From positions 1-61,420 of the forward strand of contig MFMN01000003.1 in assembly GCA_001783515.1 (NCBI GenBank): DNA of 61,420 bases, read 5' to 3'. The notes under the pieces were generated by a model. That model was not told where the DNA came from. It did no database searches and was given only the letters and a program-made list of their open reading frames with translations. Shown here in pieces: positions 7,354 to 37,635 of the stretch. Each line of letters opens with the position of its first letter. The stretch's first letter is position 1. The translations under genes and the position numbers were made by a program. This DNA comes from Candidatus Kaiserbacteria bacterium RIFCSPLOWO2_12_FULL_50_10 (GTDB lineage Bacteria; Patescibacteriota; Minisyncoccia; Phycocordibacterales; UBA918).

Positions 7354-8253
7354 ATGAAAAAGCAAAAGGTGGTAGTTATTGTCGGGCAGACAGCATCAGG
7401 AAAGACAGCGCTTTCGCTTGAGCTCGCGCAGAAAATTGGTGCTGAAATTATATCAGCAGACTCGCGGCAGGTGTACCTTGGTATGGATCTCGGGAGCGGA
7501 AAAGTTACCAAAGAGGAGCAGGCTATCGCACTGCATCACCTACTCGACGTTGCTGATCCCAGAAAAGATGTCTTTACGGTTGCAGATTTTGTGGAGCAAG
7601 GAAGTGAAATTCTTGACAAAACTCTGAAGCGTGCTGTTACCCCGATCATTGTTGGCGGTACATTCCTCTATGTTGATGCGTTACTCGGCAAAATAAGCAT
7701 ACCGAAAGTTGCCCCGAACGAGGAATTTCGAGCATCGCTCGAAACATGCAGCAACGACGAACTCTTTGCGATGCTTGCACAAAAAGACGCTCGTCGAGCT
7801 TCTGAGATTGATAAGTATAATCGCGTACGTCTCGTACGTGCGCTCGAAATAATTAACACGCTTGGTTCTGTTCCTGAGGTGATGCCAAGTGAGAAATACG
7901 ATGTGTACACCATTGGGCTTTCCATAGAAAAAGAAAAACTTCACGAACGTATCCATACCCGCCTCCTCCAGCGTTTTGATGAAGGAATGATAGAAGAAGT
8001 TACACGGCTCCATGAGGAGGGTGTGTCATGGGAGAGGCTGCATAGATTCGGTCTTGAATATCGTCATATTGCTGCGTACCTCCAGGGAACTATCCCCAAC
8101 AAAGAAGCACTCATCGCAACGCTCGATCAAGACATTCGGTCGTTCGCAAAACGACAGATGACGTGGCTTACGCGTGACAAAACGATTCACTGGTATCCCT
8201 TTGATGCGCACGAGCAGATCATTGCTGATGTCGAAGGATGGCTTGCTGCATAG
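7354..8253 (+). CDS. miaA: tRNA dimethylallyltransferase
   Basis: 299 aa with P-loop VGQTASGKTALS and ISADSRQVYLGMDLGSGK, the MiaA signature. Confidence 0.9.
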   Translation: MKKQKVVVIVGQTASGKTALSLELAQKIGAEIISADSRQVYLGMDLGSGKVTKEEQAIALHHLLDVADPRKDVFTVADFVEQGSEILDKTLKRAVTPIIVGGTFLYVDALLGKISIPKVAPNEEFRASLETCSNDELFAMLAQKDARRASEIDKYNRVRLVRALEIINTLGSVPEVMPSEKYDVYTIGLSIEKEKLHERIHTRLLQRFDEGMIEEVTRLHEEGVSWERLHRFGLEYRHIAAYLQGTIPNKEALIATLDQDIRSFAKRQMTWLTRDKTIHWYPFDAHEQIIADVEGWLAA

Positions 8254-14448: not shown

Positions 14449-14607
14449 GATAATAAGGAGTTCGGCCACGATCGCTTAGTATTTGTTGTTCGCTTGCGCT
14501 CCAAAATACTAAGCGTTGCCGACCCCGCCTTGCCTCCCATTATATAACTCCGCTAAAGCTACGTAATATAATGGGTTCCCAGACGTCCTTTTGAGCCCCT
14601 TATCGTC
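14449..14607 (+). ncRNA. Candidate structured RNA/element, tRNA-linked family, copy 1 (convergent with tRNA-Val)
   Basis: It has a terminal helix, conserved hairpin 1 (CGCTTAGTATTT/AAATACTAAGCG), TTGCCGACCCCGCCT, and hairpin 2 (CCCATTATAT/ATATAATGGG). It aligns end to end with the reverse complement of 33181-33354. The strand is inferred from shared orientation only. Confidence 0.45.
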
Positions 14608-14621
14608 TCACGGCGGGCAAC

Positions 14622-33129: not shown

Positions 33130-33179
33130 CAAAGACATAAAACCAACGCGTCTAGCGTTGGTTTTATCTTGTCTTTGTG
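33128..33179. terminator. Long perfect hairpin after tRNA-Ala
   Basis: CACAAAGACATAAAACCAACGC-GTCTA-GCGTTGGTTTTATCTTGTCTTTGTG. Confidence 0.7.
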
Positions 33180-33180
33180 A

Positions 33181-33354
33181 GACCCGACAGGACTTGAACG
33201 CCGGAGCCGGTATACAAGATTGTTACTGATACGAAGCTTTTGCGTAGTACAGTAACAATACTTGTCGGAGAGGCGGGGTCGGCAACGCTTAGTATTTTTG
33301 GAGCGGCAGCGAACAACAAATACTTTAGCGATTGTGACCAAGTCCTGTCGGGTC
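33181..33354 (-). ncRNA. Candidate structured RNA/element, tRNA-linked family, copy 2 (convergent with tRNA-Ala)
   Basis: It has a 16-bp terminal helix GACCCGACAGGACTTG/CAAGTCCTGTCGGGTC, the conserved core, and hairpin ATTGTTACTG/CAGTAACAAT. It aligns with 14449-14607. Confidence 0.45.
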
Positions 33355-33364
33355 ATCCCGCATT

Positions 33365-34302: not shown

Positions 34303-34376
34303 TGGTAGCGGGAACTGGAATCGAACCAGTGTCTTGAGGTTATGAGCCTCACGAGGTACCTCTCCTCTATCCCGCT
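34303..34376 (-). tRNA. tRNA-Met type (anticodon CAT; elongator Met or Ile2), CCA encoded
   Basis: The reverse complement reads AGCGGGATAGAGGAGAGGTACCTCGTGAGGCTCATAACCTCAAGACACTGGTTCGATTCCAGTTCCCGCTACCA. It lacks the three G-C pairs of an initiator anticodon stem. Confidence 0.85.
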
Positions 34377-34414
34377 GTGTAATCTTGCTGGTGTTGTTTT
34401 ATAGACCGACACAG

Positions 34415-34472
34415 GTCTTGAGGTTATGAGTCATATAATTCCTCTTGCGAGGTACCTCTCCTCTATCCCGCT
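34415..34472 (-). pseudogene. Partial tRNA-Met copy (5' half plus anticodon loop, 17-nt replacement in anticodon stem)
   Basis: The first 25 nt and the 16 nt CTCATAACCTCAAGAC are identical to the intact gene 38 nt downstream. TGAGG is replaced by CAAGAGGAATTATATGA. There is no T arm and no acceptor 3' strand. Confidence 0.7.
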
Positions 34473-34565: not shown

Positions 34566-35582
34566 ATGTTAGAAGAACTGTTCGGCGTAAGTAAGGTTGG
34601 TATTGATCTCGGCACAACGAGCGTGCTGGTGTATGTGCCAGGGAAAGGGGTGGTAACGTATGAACCATCAGTTGTTGCAGTGTCTGATGACCAGCAGATT
34701 CTTGCGGTGGGCGACGAAGCGAAGCGCATGATTGGACGTACGCCTGAGCATATTCGTGCGTATCGCCCGATGAAGGACGGGGTGATTGCAGACTATCGTG
34801 TGACGGAGGCTATGCTTCGATATTTTTTGCGCCAAGCATGCGGACGATTCTCGCTGCGCAGGCCCGACGTGCTTGTCTCGGTGCCATCAGGGGTTTCGTC
34901 AACAGAGAAGCGCGCAGTCATCGAAGCGGCGCTCAATGCTGGCGCGAAGAATGCCTATGTGCTCAAGGAGCCGATTCTTGCAGCTCTTGGCGCGGGGCTT
35001 CCTATTTATGAGCCGTGCGGACATCTCATTGTTGATATTGGTGGCGGCACGACTGATGCGGCGGTTATTTCGCTTGGATCAATTGTTGCCGCAACGTCAG
35101 TCCGCTGCGCCGGGAACAAAATAGATGCAACGATTGTCGATTATGTAAAGAAGACCTACAATCTTGCGATTGGTGAAAAAACTGCCGAGGATATTAAAAT
35201 AGGTATTGGCTCAGCACTTCCTGTTGAAGAGGAACTCTCCATGGAAGTAAAAGGACGTGATCTCATGTCGGGGCTTCCGCGCACGATTGAACTCAAGACA
35301 AATGAGGTGGTGCGCGCTACACAGAAAGAGCTTCGCGAGATTGTGGGTGCTATCAAAACCGTTTTCCAAGATACGCCGCCAGAGCTTGCTGCGGATATTA
35401 TTGATTACGGGATTATTCTTACCGGAGGCTCGTCACAACTTCGCAACCTTGCAGAGTTTGTGAAGCGTCGTACGGGGGTAAAAACAAAAGTGGCAGAGCA
35501 GGCGCAGTTTTGTGTGGTGAAGGGGACGGGAATAGCACTGCAGCATTTAGACATGTATAAACAGGCCCTAATCAGAAAATAG
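34566..35582 (+). CDS. mreB: Rod shape-determining protein MreB
   Basis: VGIDLGTTSVLVYV, RPMKDGVIADY and DIGGGTTD are actin-fold MreB motifs. Confidence 0.9.
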   Translation: MLEELFGVSKVGIDLGTTSVLVYVPGKGVVTYEPSVVAVSDDQQILAVGDEAKRMIGRTPEHIRAYRPMKDGVIADYRVTEAMLRYFLRQACGRFSLRRPDVLVSVPSGVSSTEKRAVIEAALNAGAKNAYVLKEPILAALGAGLPIYEPCGHLIVDIGGGTTDAAVISLGSIVAATSVRCAGNKIDATIVDYVKKTYNLAIGEKTAEDIKIGIGSALPVEEELSMEVKGRDLMSGLPRTIELKTNEVVRATQKELREIVGAIKTVFQDTPPELAADIIDYGIILTGGSSQLRNLAEFVKRRTGVKTKVAEQAQFCVVKGTGIALQHLDMYKQALIRK

Positions 35583-35584
35583 CA

Positions 35585-35704
35585 GAACTTCCAAAATTGG
35601 CACATTTGCACATGCTTCAGTCGCTCGCTTCTCGCGGTACGTTGGGTACCGCTCCTGCGCTCACTTCTTCCAGCCAGCACAACTGCGCTCAATTTTGAAA
35701 GTTC
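35585..35704 (+). repeat. Family-1 palindromic intergenic element, copy D (variant interior)
   Basis: It starts 2 nt after the mreB TAG: GAACTTCCAAAATTGGCACATTTGCA...CTCAATTTTGAAAGTTC. Confidence 0.8.
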
Positions 35705-35780
35705 TGCCTTCGCGGGAGTTGCGGTATGCTTTGTTGCGGCGGATTGTCTTTTGCGACGATTTATGTATAATGCGCTAACC

Positions 35781-36056
35781 ATGACACACGAGCGAGAAGA
35801 AGACATACAGGCTCTTCATGAGGAGCTCGGAGAACTTCGCAAGGAGCTTGCGAAGAACTCGTCATTGGTAAAGAAGATATACCGCCATACCGCTATTGCG
35901 AACGCAATGCGATTCATCTGGCTCGCTATCATTGTGGGTATTCCCGTTGTTGCCTATATTTTTGCGGGTTCGTTTATTGAAACGATTGCAAATTATATCA
36001 ATGCGCAAATCCAGGAAATCCTCAATGCATACCTCCAGCAGTATCTTGGAAGGTAA
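35781..36056 (+). CDS. Coiled-coil plus TM hypothetical protein
   Basis: MTHEREEDIQALHEELGELRKELAKN followed by a TM segment. TGTATAAT plus 9 nt precedes this ATG (M11 of the track ORF). Confidence 0.45.
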   Translation: MTHEREEDIQALHEELGELRKELAKNSSLVKKIYRHTAIANAMRFIWLAIIVGIPVVAYIFAGSFIETIANYINAQIQEILNAYLQQYLGR

Positions 36057-36072
36057 AATACTATATACCAAC

Positions 36073-36228
36073 GCTTGGGTAGCTCAGTTTGAGGAGACCG
36101 ACCGCTTCCGCGGACCAGGTCGGTCTCGCTGCTAAGGATGTCGGCCGCCGCCGACACTATCAAAAATGTTTGCTTTCGCAAACATGGCAGATAGAGCACT
36201 CATTGCCTGCGATGGAATGCTGAAGAGT
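36073..36228 (+). pseudogene. Degenerate tRNA-Phe copy 1 with ~102-nt D-loop insert
   Basis: GCTTGGGTAGCTCAGTT is identical to the intact gene. Then comes an insert at 36090-36191 with three hairpins, then TAGAGCACTC, an 18-nt insert and CTGAAGAG. There is no T arm. Confidence 0.65.
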
Positions 36229-36235
36229 ATAATAC

Positions 36236-36308
36236 GCTTGGGTAGCTCAGTTGGTAGAGCACTCCCCTGAAGAGGGAGGGGTCACCAGTTCGACCCTGGT
36301 CCCAAGCA
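36236..36308 (+). tRNA. tRNA-Phe (anticodon GAA)
   Basis: GCTTGGGTAGCTCAGTTGGTAGAGCACTCCCCTGAAGAGGGAGGGGTCACCAGTTCGACCCTGGTCCCAAGCA. It folds as a canonical cloverleaf. Confidence 0.9.
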
Positions 36309-36317
36309 CAAAATAAA

Positions 36318-36486
36318 TAGCTCAGTTGGACACCGCTCCACTACGTTCCGCGGCGCAGAGCCTGCACTCGCGATCAAAAAGAACATGCCCTACGGGACAC
36401 GTTCTTTTTGTCACTCGTTTGACTCTGATAGAGCACTCCCCTGAAGAGGGAGGGTGTCGCCGAGTTCCGAACCCTGGTCCCAAGCA
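36318..36486 (+). pseudogene. Degenerate tRNA-Phe copy 3 with 99-nt D-loop insert, lacking 5' acceptor strand
   Basis: TAGCTCAGTTGG, then an insert at 36330-36428, then TAGAGCACTCCCCTGAAGAGGGAGGG (identical anticodon arm). A corrupted T arm follows, then CCCTGGTCCCAAGCA. Confidence 0.65.
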
Positions 36487-36491
36487 CCTAT

Positions 36492-36522
36492 AAAAACGCA
36501 ATGCATACGCATTGCGTTTTTT
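36492..36522 (+). terminator. Intrinsic terminator hairpin
   Basis: AAAAACGCAATGC-ATAC-GCATTGCGTTTTTT. Confidence 0.75.
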
Positions 36523-36525
36523 GCG

Positions 36526-36534
36526 TGGTATACT
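36526..36534 (+). promoter_or_regulatory. Extended -10 box TGGTATACT, 6 nt upstream of ATG 36541
   Basis: The sequence reads tggtatact, ctccct, then ATG. Confidence 0.6.
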
Positions 36535-36540
36535 CTCCCT

Positions 36541-37635
36541 ATGCAGCGAATAAAAACTCTCATAGCGTGGGCAAAGAGTAATCAACATCACCTCCTCTCG
36601 GCGTCGTTTTTTGTGGGGTTTGTTATTGATAACCTTACCCTCAACCGTGTCGACAGTCAGGGTGACAACATTATTCTTGCAACCTATATGGTGCTGATGA
36701 TGTTCTCGACGCTTATGCTGTATGCAGCGCTCGCAACAAAACTGCCTGAACGTATCGTGCCGTTTTGTCGTGATTTCATGCCGTATGTTATGCAGTTTTC
36801 TTTTGGTGGTGTGCTCTCTGGCATGCTTATCTTCTATAGTCGTTCGGGCTCGTGGGAATCAAGCTGGCCGTTTCTCGTCATTATTGTCGGGGTTATTGCG
36901 GGCAATGAGCTTCTTTCGCGACGAGCTGAGCGACTTGTCTTTAACTTGTCGGTGCTTTTCATTGCGCTTTTCTCGTATACTGCGCTCATCATTCCGGTGC
37001 TCATTGGGCGCATGGGCGAAGTGGTGTTTGTAATTAGCAGCATCATTGCACTTGCTATCTTTGTGGCGTTTGTACAGACACTTATCGCTATTGTGCCGAA
37101 CTTTATTCGGCTCCATATCCGCACCATCGTTTTTTCGGTCGGCGGTATTTTCATGACTATGCAGTTTCTCTATTTTGCGAACCTCATTCCCCCAATTCCG
37201 CTTTCGCTCAAAGATATTGGTATCTATCACAACGTGGAGAAGACCCAAGATGGCAGCTATCTCTTAAGTTATGAAAAGCAGCCATGGTGGCAATTTTGGG
37301 ACCGACGCAAAAACACCTTTACCCCGAGCGAGGGGGCGTTCCCGTATTGCTATTCGTCAGTATTTGCACCAACAAAACTTTCAACGGCAATTGTGCATGA
37401 GTGGCAGTACTATGTCGATGCTGAAAAAGAATGGCAGTCGCGTAGCGTTGTTTCTTTTGCCATCGCGGGCGGTCGTGCAGAGGGGTATCGAGGGTATTCC
37501 TACAAGGAGACCTACGAACCAGGGAAGTGGCGCTGCCTGGTGCGGACGGAGCGCGGACAGACAATTGGCTATGTTACCTTCTTAATTCGAGAAGAAGCTA
37601 GCGCCGTGCCTCCGCTCGAAACGGTTATAAAATAG
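36541..37635 (+). CDS. Polytopic membrane protein with C-terminal DUF2914-like domain
   Basis: About 7 TM helices, then YYVDAEKEWQSRSVVSFAIAGGRAEGYRGYSYKETYEPGKWRCLVRTERGQTIGYVTF. The family call is from memory. Confidence 0.5.
   Translation: MQRIKTLIAWAKSNQHHLLSASFFVGFVIDNLTLNRVDSQGDNIILATYMVLMMFSTLMLYAALATKLPERIVPFCRDFMPYVMQFSFGGVLSGMLIFYSRSGSWESSWPFLVIIVGVIAGNELLSRRAERLVFNLSVLFIALFSYTALIIPVLIGRMGEVVFVISSIIALAIFVAFVQTLIAIVPNFIRLHIRTIVFSVGGIFMTMQFLYFANLIPPIPLSLKDIGIYHNVEKTQDGSYLLSYEKQPWWQFWDRRKNTFTPSEGAFPYCYSSVFAPTKLSTAIVHEWQYYVDAEKEWQSRSVVSFAIAGGRAEGYRGYSYKETYEPGKWRCLVRTERGQTIGYVTFLIREEASAVPPLETVIK

What the first reader, a model, noticed from the sequence alone, without database searches (positions are those of the whole stretch)
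36073..36486. tRNA-Phe flanked by two degenerate tRNA-Phe copies, both interrupted at the same D-loop position by ~100-nt hairpin-rich inserts
Upstream copy: it has 17 nt identical to the tRNA-Phe 5' end (GCTTGGGTAGCTCAGTT) and then a 102-nt insert (36090-36191). The insert contains GAGACCGACC..GGTCGGTCTC, TGTCGGC..GCCGACA and ATGTTTGC..GCAAACAT hairpins. TAGAGCACTC follows.

Downstream copy: TAGCTCAGTTGG is followed by a 99-nt insert (36330-36428). The anticodon arm after it is identical to the intact gene (TAGAGCACTCCCCTGAAGAGGGAGGG), and the acceptor 3' end is also identical.

Both inserts sit between GTTGG and TAGAGC of the D loop. They share TTCCGCGG and ATCAAAAA-plus-hairpin in the same order.

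An insertion at the same position in two independently decayed copies suggests one of two things. Either an ancestral tRNA-Phe carried an intervening sequence in the D loop, or something repeatedly targets this site. Bacterial tRNA introns are normally group I introns in the anticodon loop, so a ~100-nt D-loop insert would be unusual.
Basis: partly seen in the sequence, partly recalled or inferred. Interest (0 to 1): 0.65.

Follow-up and report, generated by a model that had tools for sequence, protein, structure and literature searches.

The report
Accessory cassettes flanking a tRNA-Phe gene
One working tRNA-Phe gene in a Candidate Phyla Radiation bacterium is flanked by two blocks of about 170 bases, made of tRNA-Phe fragments plus conserved hairpin modules, which close relatives lack; these are gain-and-loss cassettes, not tRNA introns.

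Summary
The intron reading fails. The working tRNA-Phe (36236-36309) is uninterrupted in all six related genomes. No insert-bearing copy is a complete tRNA. No Rfam family matches.

The locus is one gene plus two blocks bounded by 17-nt direct repeats: tRNA nt 1-17, ending in the D loop, and nt 58-74, starting in the T loop. Deleting both blocks in silico (163 and 178 nt) reproduces a sister strain exactly (127/127). Two other relatives also lack one or both blocks.

The "inserts" are two unrelated, conserved, non-coding modules.
- S1, with its tRNA-derived arms, is a closed multi-hairpin fold. It is 72% identical to one other species where neutral sites are about 42%. All 18 stem substitutions keep pairing.
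- S2 carries a bidirectional terminator. It is 84% and 73% identical to two species, once upstream of the tRNA and not downstream.

The most likely origin is small non-autonomous cassettes or scars of recombination at the tRNA's 5'/D-loop and T-loop sublocations. All four tRNAs in the window carry comparable partial copies. A further conserved element family sits at tRNA 3' ends.

The parts
36073..36089 (+). 5' fragment of tRNA-Phe (nt 1-17, ends in the D loop). It is the left copy of direct repeat 1 and sits at the ancestral start of the gene.
   Evidence: Identical to 36236-36252. The upstream flank ..ccaac is the same as the flank of the plain tRNA-Phe in L032, L075 and L076.
36090..36191 (+). 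Non-coding. Contains helices 36095-36103/36118-36126, 36129-36133/36186-36190, 36136-36145/36150-36158 and 36166-36173/36178-36185.
   Evidence: Aligns without gaps to L027, 72% identical, against 37-46% at 4-fold sites of flanking genes. 39 pairs are 100% paired in both species, 7 of them compensatory. No ORF and no 3-periodicity. No Rfam match.
36192..36235 (+). Remainder of unit A. TAGAGCACTC (tRNA nt 20-29) together with 36076-36085 forms the closing helix of S1. Then a 34-nt spacer 'x' with CTGAAGAG (36220-36227, anticodon-loop-like) and TATAAT (36228-36233).
   Evidence: Closing helix 36076-36085 with 36194-36202. TAGAGCRCT plus a spacer of about 30 nt directly upstream of the tRNA recurs in L027 and twice in L072.
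36236..36309 (+). Intact tRNA-Phe (GAA), the functional gene. Its nt 1-17 and nt 58-74 are the inner copies of the two direct repeats.
   Evidence: ARAGORN. Rfam tRNA 67.1 bits. Identical gene in L032, L075 and L076.
36310..36329 (+). 8-nt A-rich spacer plus an isolated tRNA-Phe fragment TAGCTCAGTTGG (nt 8-19).
   Evidence: The orthologous piece in L075 is caaagtaaa + TAGCACAGCTGG, 10/12, i.e. decaying.
36330..36416 (.). Contains an A-tract/stem/T-tract bidirectional intrinsic terminator at 36375-36410 and the leader-like motif GTCACTC (36410-36416).
   Evidence: 84% identical to L075 and 73% to L072, while 4-fold sites are 43% and 34%. Compensatory changes in the hairpin. The minus strand folds better because of G.U pairs. 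Weak match to the native leader of tRNA-Phe in L026 (nhmmer E = 0.015; alignment).
36417..36487 (+). Decayed tRNA-Phe paralogue. Candidate 5' end GTTTGACT-CTGA with an 8-nt deletion of the D-stem 5' strand; D-stem 3' strand plus anticodon arm identical to the gene (36429-36454); T arm with indels (36455-36470); right copy of direct repeat 2 (36471-36487).
   Evidence: L072 shares the same deletion (GCTTGCGT-TG-TAGAGCGC). ARAGORN calls a tRNA-Phe-like fold at 36408-36485 only at a relaxed threshold. The downstream flank is identical to that of the plain gene in L076.
36492..36521 (+). Perfect 13-bp hairpin with a T tract: the terminator that closes the locus before the DUF2914 gene (36541-37635).
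   Evidence: I3. Identical in L076 directly after its single tRNA-Phe.

Best explanation
The 414-bp stretch is a compound tRNA-Phe locus: one working gene (36236-36309) plus two accessory blocks.

Each block is bounded by a 17-nt direct repeat of one end of the tRNA.
- Block 1 (163 nt; 36090-36252 or equivalently 36073-36235) is bounded by tRNA nt 1-17, a repeat that ends in the D loop.
- Block 2 (178 nt; 36310-36487) is bounded by nt 58-74, a repeat that starts in the T loop.

Each block carries a conserved non-coding hairpin module tied to further tRNA-Phe-like sequence.
- S1 is closed by a helix made of tRNA-like nt 4-13 and 22-30.
- S2 contains a bidirectional terminator and adjoins a decayed tRNA-Phe paralogue.

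Shown:
- The blocks are dispensable and are present or absent as units among close relatives.
- The modules are conserved well above neutral, with structure-preserving substitutions.
- S2 sits upstream of the tRNA in one species and downstream in two.
- None of this behaves like an intron.

Inferred:
- The blocks are miniature, non-autonomous cassettes or scars left by recombination that uses the tRNA's 5'/D-loop and T-loop regions as attachment points, as genomic islands do.
- They are gained, lost and reshuffled by recombination between the repeated tRNA segments.
- The retained hairpins now serve as leader and terminator structure for the tRNA-Phe transcript.
- Gene conversion from the live gene keeps the tRNA-like arms identical up to the module boundary. 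That is why both 'inserts' appear to sit at one D-loop position.
For: 1. Empty sites. L032 (DUF2914 86% identical) and L076 (p101 99% identical) have a plain tRNA-Phe between the same genes. Removing the two repeat-bounded blocks from the window gives L076 exactly, 127/127. L075 lacks block 1 but has block 2. L027 has block 1, with a different element in the place of block 2.

2. Conservation. S1 is 72% identical and gapless against L027, while 4-fold sites are 37-46%. 34 substitutions fall in 132 nt; 18 are in stems and all keep pairing, with 7 compensatory pairs. Slid controls give 30-45% paired. S2 is 84% and 73% identical to L075 and L072, against 43% and 34% at neutral sites.

3. Mobility or reshuffling. 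S2 lies in an upstream unit in L072 and downstream in the window and L075.

4. The phenomenon is general. All four tRNAs in the window have partial copies. At tRNA-Met this is a 96-nt block bounded by a 25-nt 5' repeat, absent in L027. Other CPR loci show 5' fragments ending at nt 9-20 followed by hairpins.

5. Precedent. Partial tRNA genes arise from integrating elements (PMC9897764). Islands have been described that integrate upstream of a tRNA using the 5' acceptor strand, D stem and D loop as the recombination site (bioRxiv 10.1101/2020.11.02.365908).
Against: - No integrase or transposase appears among the ORFs tested in the window or within +/-10 kb.
- No full-length parent element was found anywhere.
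- The modules have no match in viral contigs or phage genomes.
- The end of the 5' repeat varies among lineages (nt 9 to 20), which is looser than expected for one site-specific enzyme.
- The tRNA-like pieces always match the local tRNA variant (GCTTGAG in L027, GCTCGGG in L072). That fits local duplication plus gene conversion as well as it fits imported att sites.
- Block 1 contains more tRNA-like sequence (nt 20-29 and 32-39) than a simple attL/attR model predicts.
- Only one (S1) or two (S2) further species carry each module, so covariation statistics are thin.
Confidence: 0.55

Rival explanations
1. Functional tRNA-associated structured RNAs. Unit A (about 130 nt, closed by a tRNA-derived helix) and comparable modules are selected non-coding RNAs or cis-acting leader/trailer structures. 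They might be processing or stability determinants, decoys for tRNA-binding proteins, or regulators of tRNA-Phe expression. On this view their tRNA-like arms exist for function, not as recombination scars. This can coexist with the best explanation through co-option.
For: S1 has 100% pairing and 7 compensatory pairs, and conserved loop sequence CGCGGACC. 8 of 78 pair cells are G.U, which favours a + strand transcript. TATAAT sits only 2 nt before the tRNA, so the gene is probably transcribed through unit A. The analogous E3 element after tRNA-Ala is 97% identical between species whose neutral sites are about 42% identical. E3 has conserved inner helices closed by a tRNA-derived helix.
Against: The closest relatives do without both units. 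There are no expression data. S1 was found in only two species and in none of about 25 other CPR tRNA-Phe loci by covariance-model search. Conservation above neutral could also reflect recent horizontal spread.
Confidence: 0.25
2. A small transposable element with D-loop target specificity (for example an IS200/IS605-type or other hairpin-ended miniature element) inserted independently between G19 and U20 of two spare tRNA-Phe copies.
For: Both stretches begin just after GTTKG and end with GA before TAGAGC, with no target duplication or loss. Both are about 100 nt with hairpins near their ends. L072 has an S2-type insert at the same D-loop position of an upstream fragment. Peribacteria loci L022, L025 and L029 also have fragments broken in the D loop and followed by a hairpin.
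Against: S1 and S2 are not related to each other. There are no other copies in 61 kb or in any fetched locus. No transposase was found. The right boundary of S2 aligns with the native leader plus decayed 5' end of a tRNA-Phe, so it is probably not a junction. Presence and absence follow the 17-nt tRNA repeats, not the insert boundaries.
Confidence: 0.12
3. Plain tandem duplication of tRNA-Phe followed by decay. The inserts are filler DNA or ordinary intergenic spacer with promoter and terminator hairpins, and no mobile or site-specific process is involved.
For: The locus can be read as an array of tRNA-Phe pieces and spacers. L072 has tandem units of tRNA nt 1-29 plus a spacer of about 35 nt. 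L026 has two tandem units starting with GCTTGGGTA. The tRNA pieces match the local tRNA variant.
Against: Filler or decaying DNA would not stay 72-84% identical and gapless, with only pair-preserving stem changes, across species whose synonymous sites are saturated. The same module occurs on opposite sides of the tRNA in different species.
Confidence: 0.06
4. D-loop intron. The inserts are intervening sequences spliced from tRNA-Phe precursors, either by an archaeal-type endonuclease or by self-splicing, possibly joining unit A's 5' piece to unit C's 3' part.
For: Position inside the D loop, length of about 100 nt, and structure. An in-silico join of unit A's 5' piece to unit C's 3' part is called as tRNA-Phe by ARAGORN.
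Against: An uninterrupted tRNA-Phe lies between the units and is the only copy in L032 and L076. No interrupted copy is a full gene. There is no group I or other intron match. No splicing endonuclease appears among the ORFs examined. The units are absent in sister strains.
Confidence: 0.02

Closest known systems
Partial tRNA genes (attL/attR duplications) left by integrative elements, including the 5'-end/D-loop sublocation described for Klebsiella arg2 islands
   Same: Extra DNA next to a tRNA gene is bounded by direct repeats of one end of the tRNA. The gene stays intact. Relatives have clean empty sites. One repeat ends in the D loop and the other starts in the T loop, both known or reported sublocations (PMC9897764; bioRxiv 10.1101/2020.11.02.365908).
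   Different: The blocks are only 163 and 178 nt, with no integrase and no cargo. They contain more tRNA-like sequence than the repeat itself. The modules are conserved and structured. No parent element is known.
Cis-mobilizable or decayed integrative elements (CIME-like att-flanked remnants). This comparison is from my own knowledge of Streptococcus CIMEs and was not tested here.
   Same: Non-autonomous DNA flanked by att-type repeats at a conserved integration site, variably present among strains.
   Different: Known CIMEs are kilobases long and derive from identifiable ICEs. Here the units are under 200 nt and no cognate recombinase was found.
tRNA introns: bacterial group I introns in the anticodon loop, and archaeal bulge-helix-bulge introns at non-canonical positions
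   Same: A structured stretch of about 100 nt lying between the two halves of a D arm.
   Different: The interrupted copies are not complete genes. The working gene is uninterrupted. There is no ribozyme family match, and the units show presence/absence among strains.
MITE / REP-type small hairpin repeats
   Same: Small, non-coding, hairpin-rich, strain-variable. The sister strain L076 carries an unrelated 135-nt element flanked by terminal inverted repeats at the same intergenic site.
   Different: S1 and S2 have no terminal inverted repeats of their own, no target-site duplication, and no other copies in the window. They are always tied to tRNA-Phe sequence.

Membership tests
tRNA intron (group I, self-splicing) | Conserved group I ribozyme core detectable by covariance model | tested here: not met
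   An Rfam 15 scan of 35950-36600 at E<=10 finds only the intact tRNA and two chance hits.
tRNA intron (any kind) | The intervening sequence interrupts an otherwise complete tRNA gene, so that removing it yields a functional tRNA | tested here: not met
   With the inserts removed in silico, neither unit A nor unit C is called as a tRNA. Unit A ends at about nt 39. Unit C lacks a matching 5' acceptor strand.
tRNA intron (archaeal BHB type) | Bulge-helix-bulge motif at both junctions, and a splicing endonuclease in the genome | not tested
   The BHB motif was not modelled. No EndA-like domain appears among the ORFs with Pfam results, but only 61 kb of the genome was available.
Integrative-element att scar at a tRNA gene | Extra DNA bounded by direct repeats identical to one end of the tRNA, with the tRNA gene regenerated | tested here: met
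   17-nt repeats at 36073-36089/36236-36252 and at 36293-36309/36471-36487. The gene is intact.
Integrative-element att scar at a tRNA gene | Empty-site allele in relatives that equals the occupied site minus the repeat-bounded DNA | tested here: met
   The window minus 36090-36252 and 36310-36487 equals L076, 127/127. L032 and L075 are also empty for one or both blocks.
Integrative-element att scar at a tRNA gene | A cognate integrase or recombinase in the element or genome, or a full-length parent element | tested here: not met
   None among called genes within +/-10 kb or among 20 further ORFs. No viral or phage match to the modules. The rest of the genome was not available.
MITE | Terminal inverted repeats, target-site duplication, and multiple dispersed copies | tested here: not met
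   No further copies in the window or in about 260 kb of related loci. Apart from the 4-bp D stem, the ends of the inserts are not inverted repeats.
Conserved structured non-coding RNA | Secondary structure maintained by compensatory substitutions across species | tested here: inconclusive
   S1 has 7 compensatory pairs and no broken pairs, but only 2 sequences, and the structure was derived from them. The S2 hairpin has compensatory changes in 3 sequences. No expression data.

The most novel reading that the evidence does not exclude
CPR (Paceibacteria/Kaiserbacteria) tRNA genes may be accompanied by a previously undescribed class of small structured elements: S1, S2 and the 'E3' family. In S1 and E3 the closing helix is built from copies of the host tRNA's own 5' or 3' end. 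On this reading they are either selfish elements of about 100-330 nt that hitch-hike on tRNA genes through D-loop/T-loop recombination without encoding any protein, or functional tRNA-cognate RNAs that act on tRNA processing or expression.
Probability: 0.3. Interest if true: 0.7.

Novelty: new variant of a known kind. Interest (0 to 1): 0.45.

Why it matters
If the reading holds, it has four consequences.
- An apparent bacterial D-loop tRNA intron is removed from the record.
- In streamlined CPR genomes, tRNA genes act as hot spots where very small, protein-less, structured cassettes are gained, lost and reshuffled through repeats of the tRNA's own ends.
- Annotation pipelines get a concrete caution. 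These loci produce tRNA-like fragments and break short-read assemblies: several related contigs end inside the repeats.
- Candidate conserved non-coding elements (S1, S2, E3) are flagged in a phylum where almost no RNA biology is known.

Tried and rejected
**Searches that added little**
It returned only L027's own contig.
- A loose D-loop-interrupted pattern in viral contigs returned mostly tandem tRNA genes and noise. The one odd hit (L049/L071) is not a tRNA.
- Module-specific patterns in viral contigs and BLAST against phage genomes found nothing.
- A covariance model of unit A found no further member in 33 sources, 262 kb.

**Look-ups that led nowhere**
- DUF2914 homologues at 66-67% identity (L033-L035), MreB homologues at 78-81% (L073, L077, L078) and P0009 (L079-L081) either lack the tRNA-Phe synteny or have contigs that end too early.

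**Ideas considered and dropped**
- Integron attC-like sites: GTTGGAC matches GTTRRRY, but the geometry is wrong.
- Serine-integrase insertion of one cassette carrying its own tRNA: there is no dyad symmetry at the would-be attP, and the inner junctions are left unexplained.
- tmRNA-like or retroelement primer-binding-site readings of the inverted tRNA 3' copies: these copies complement the gene plus its trailer, not a CCA end.
- A small ORF in S1: stop codons in every frame in L027 and no codon periodicity.

Full report
**1. The observation**

The window is a housekeeping region of a Candidate Phyla Radiation bacterium. Its genes include ribosomal proteins, MreB, MurB, ATP synthase and GatB. 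The same sequence is in GCA_001781255.1, and the nearest named relative is Candidatus Kaiserbacteria RIFCSPHIGHO2_02_FULL_49_34.

ARAGORN and Rfam find one tRNA-Phe(GAA) at 36236-36309.
- tRNA nt 1-17 at 36073-36089
- 102 nt with three hairpins
- TAGAGCACTC at 36192-36201
- TAGCTCAGTTGG at 36318-36329
- 99 nt
- 26 nt identical to the gene's D-stem 3' strand plus anticodon arm (36429-36454)
- a T arm with indels
- 17 nt identical to the gene's 3' end (36471-36487)

The two 10-mers occur nowhere else in 61 kb. Seven independent assemblies carry the identical 485-nt intergenic region, apart from one SNP or N at 36145. The structure is therefore real.

**2. Relatives**

A genome-collection scan with the anticodon arm fetched the tRNA-Phe locus of 24 CPR species. 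Look-ups of flanking proteins fetched the same locus from several closer relatives. Five relatives share the gene order MreB, small membrane protein p101, tRNA-Phe, DUF2914.

| Locus | Relatedness to the window | State of the tRNA-Phe locus |
|---|---|---|
| L076 | p101 99% identical | Plain single tRNA-Phe |
| L032 | DUF2914 86%, p101 84% | Plain single tRNA-Phe |
| L075 | p101 79% | No upstream unit; has the downstream 12-nt fragment and a homologue of the downstream insert |
| L027 | MreB 96%, DUF2914 80% | Gapless homologue of the upstream unit; a different element of about 300 nt downstream, ending in a 20-nt copy of the tRNA 3' end |
| L072 | MreB 89% | Upstream of its tRNA-Phe: a 5' fragment (nt 1-20), an insert of about 100 nt, then TAGAGCGC |

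The L072 insert is homologous to the window's downstream insert, not its upstream one (z = 5.7 against shuffles).

**3. The blocks are bounded by the tRNA's own ends**

The flank before unit A (..ccaac) and the flank after unit C (cctataaaaacgc... terminator) are the flanks of the plain gene in the relatives. I removed two blocks from the window. One is 36090-36252 (163 nt, bounded by the two copies of tRNA nt 1-17). The other is 36310-36487 (178 nt, bounded by the two copies of nt 58-74). The result is the L076 sequence exactly, 127 of 127 positions.

So the locus is one gene plus two repeat-bounded blocks. The unit of gain or loss is the block, not the 'insert'. One repeat ends in the D loop and the other begins in the T loop.

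**4. The inserts are conserved modules, and they are not related to each other**

Synonymous 4-fold sites between the window and L027, L075 and L072 are only 34-46% identical in MreB and DUF2914, which is near saturation.

- **S1, the upstream insert.** It is 72% identical to L027 with no indel. With its tRNA-like arms it folds into a closed structure. An outer helix, 36076-36085 with 36194-36202, encloses one hairpin and a second helix that carries two more. Between the two species 34 substitutions fall in 132 nt. Eighteen are at paired positions and all preserve pairing. Seven pairs changed on both sides, and 100% of 78 cells are paired, against 30-45% in slid controls. There is no conserved ORF and no codon periodicity. 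Eight of the 78 pair cells are G.U, which favours the + strand.
- **S2, the downstream insert.** It is 84% identical to L075 and 73% to L072. It contains an A-tract/stem/T-tract hairpin at 36375-36410 with compensatory changes. That hairpin is a bidirectional intrinsic terminator, and it folds better on the minus strand because of G.U pairs.
- **S1 against S2.** They are not significantly similar (p = 0.07-0.17). The shared 8-mers are best treated as chance.
- **Other matches.** Neither module has another copy in the window or in the fetched loci. Neither matches Rfam, phage genomes or viral contigs.

**5. The downstream unit is probably a contiguous decayed gene with its leader**

A profile of the S2 family weakly hits the native leader of the functional tRNA-Phe in a more distant Paceibacteria genome, L026 (E = 0.015). 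The alignment places S2's hairpin and TCACTC motif on L026's hairpin and CTCACTC, which lie directly before the tRNA. It places GTTTGACT-CTGA (36417-36428) on GCTTGGGTAGCTCAGTTGG with an 8-nt deletion. L072 has the same deletion (GCTTGCGT-TG-TAGAGCGC).

At a relaxed threshold, ARAGORN threads a tRNA-Phe-like fold through 36408-36485, although in a slightly different register.

If this is right, the right-hand 'junction' of the downstream insert is not an insertion point, and TAGCTCAGTTGG at 36318 is a separate fragment. This step is suggestive, not proven.

**6. Not an intron**

- The functional gene is uninterrupted in every genome examined.
- No interrupted copy is complete.
- Neither unit is called as a tRNA after its insert is removed.
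- There is no intron family match.
- The units are missing in sister strains.

**7. Origin and function (inferred)**

Repeat-bounded extra DNA at a tRNA gene, together with clean empty sites, is the signature of recombination that uses the tRNA as an attachment site. Partial tRNA genes are a known by-product of this (PMC9897764). Islands that integrate upstream of a tRNA, with the 5' acceptor strand, D stem and D loop as the recombination site, have been described in Klebsiella (bioRxiv 10.1101/2020.11.02.365908). I recall the T-loop sublocation as a classical one.

The occurrence of S2 on either side of the tRNA in different species argues for movement or reshuffling, and so does the patchy distribution of both blocks across a small clade.

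Four points count against a simple integrase story:
- No recombinase was found among the ORFs examined.
- No parent element was found.
- The repeat ends vary from nt 9 to nt 20 across lineages.
- The tRNA pieces always match the local tRNA variant.

My best reading is that these are miniature, non-autonomous cassettes or scars that are now exchanged and deleted through the repeated tRNA segments. Gene conversion from the live gene keeps the arms identical up to the heterologous module. The hairpins are retained because they serve the transcript. TATAAT lies only 2 nt before the tRNA, so the gene is probably transcribed through unit A. S2 supplies a terminator about 65 nt after the tRNA.

A functional-RNA reading of unit A remains open and is not exclusive of this.

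**8. Wider context seen in passing**

All four tRNA genes in the window carry partial copies.
- tRNA-Met has a 96-nt upstream block bounded by a 25-nt 5' repeat. L027 lacks it at that position and instead has a fragment downstream.
- tRNA-Ala and tRNA-Val are each followed by a terminator and an inverted copy of the tRNA's 3' end. A conserved body follows and, at tRNA-Ala, a direct copy starting in the T loop; the third copy after tRNA-Val is degenerate.
- The same architecture and motifs (..CGAAC|GCCGGAG ... GTGACC|repeat) follow tRNA-Phe in L027 and L030, and the conserved body and GTGACC|repeat end are also in L010.
- The tRNA-Ala copy is 97% identical between the window and L027. The family has conserved inner helices closed by the tRNA-derived helix, and there is no Rfam match.

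This parallels unit A. It suggests a general class of small structured elements built on tRNA-derived helices in these bacteria.

**9. Verdict**

The intron interpretation is rejected. The idea that 'something recurrent at this tRNA' is going on is supported, but in a different form.

The locus is a new variant of a known kind: tRNA-gene attachment-site duplications. It is unusual for the tiny size, the lack of proteins, and the conserved structure of the inserted modules.

Noticed in passing
window 33131-33355 (after tRNA-Ala), window 14456-14612 minus strand (after tRNA-Val); L027 48-270 and 3221-3536; L030 5653-5990; L010 6248-6446 and 234-307: A family of elements of about 200-330 nt ('E3') directly after tRNA genes. 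Each has a terminator, an inverted copy of the host tRNA's 3' end, and a conserved body (..GCCGGAG ... GGGGTCGGCAACGCTTAGTA ... GTGACC). Most end in a direct copy of the tRNA 3' end starting in the T loop; this third copy is degenerate after tRNA-Val. The tRNA-Ala copy is 97% identical between the window and L027 although neutral sites are about 42%. There is no Rfam match. The conserved inner helices are closed by the tRNA-derived helix.
   Followed up: partly
window 34377-34472 (minus strand, upstream of tRNA-Met 34303-34376): A 96-nt block bounded by a 25-nt direct repeat of tRNA-Met nt 1-25. It contains a partial pseudo-copy (nt 1-25, a 17-nt replacement, nt 31-46). L027 lacks it upstream and instead has a D-loop-expanded tRNA-Met fragment downstream of its gene (L027 about 1360-1400).
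   Followed up: partly
L076 679-806: The sister strain has, between the p101 stop codon and its plain tRNA-Phe, an unrelated insertion of about 130 nt flanked by imperfect terminal inverted repeats (TAACCaCTCACAC / GTGTGAGcGGTTA). The same intergenic site is therefore hit by different small elements.
   Followed up: partly
L026 2630-2802; L014 about 2290-2376; L019 (minus strand) upstream of tRNA-Phe: In other Paceibacteria and in Saccharibacteria, the tRNA-Phe gene is preceded by one or two units of about 90 nt. Each begins with the tRNA's first 9 nt (GCTTGGGTA) and is followed by hairpins. In L014 and L019, GCTTGGG...CCCAAGC forms an acceptor-like mini-helix.
   Followed up: partly
L022, L025, L029 (Peribacteria): Degenerate tRNA-Phe or tRNA-Ala copies next to the intact gene are broken in the D loop (after GCTCAGCTG / GCTCAGTT) and continue with a GC-rich hairpin. 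In L022 and L025 the sequence resumes at CTCGATCCC (T loop).
   Followed up: no
window 36267-36273: The tRNA-Phe anticodon loop is CTGAAGA, so position 37 is G. From memory, bacterial tRNA-Phe usually has A37. A MiaA (IPP transferase) gene is nevertheless present at 7354-8253.
   Followed up: no
window 35378-36056 versus L076 1-678: p101 is 99% identical in protein and 95% at 4-fold sites between the window and L076, but the whole 679-nt stretch including the MreB 3' end is only 87% identical. This suggests mosaic recombination among related strains.
   Followed up: no
window 36145: The only polymorphism among seven assemblies of the locus is C>A in L006 (N in L007). It falls on the loop-closing (terminal) pair of helix 36136-36145/36150-36158 of module S1.
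   Followed up: no
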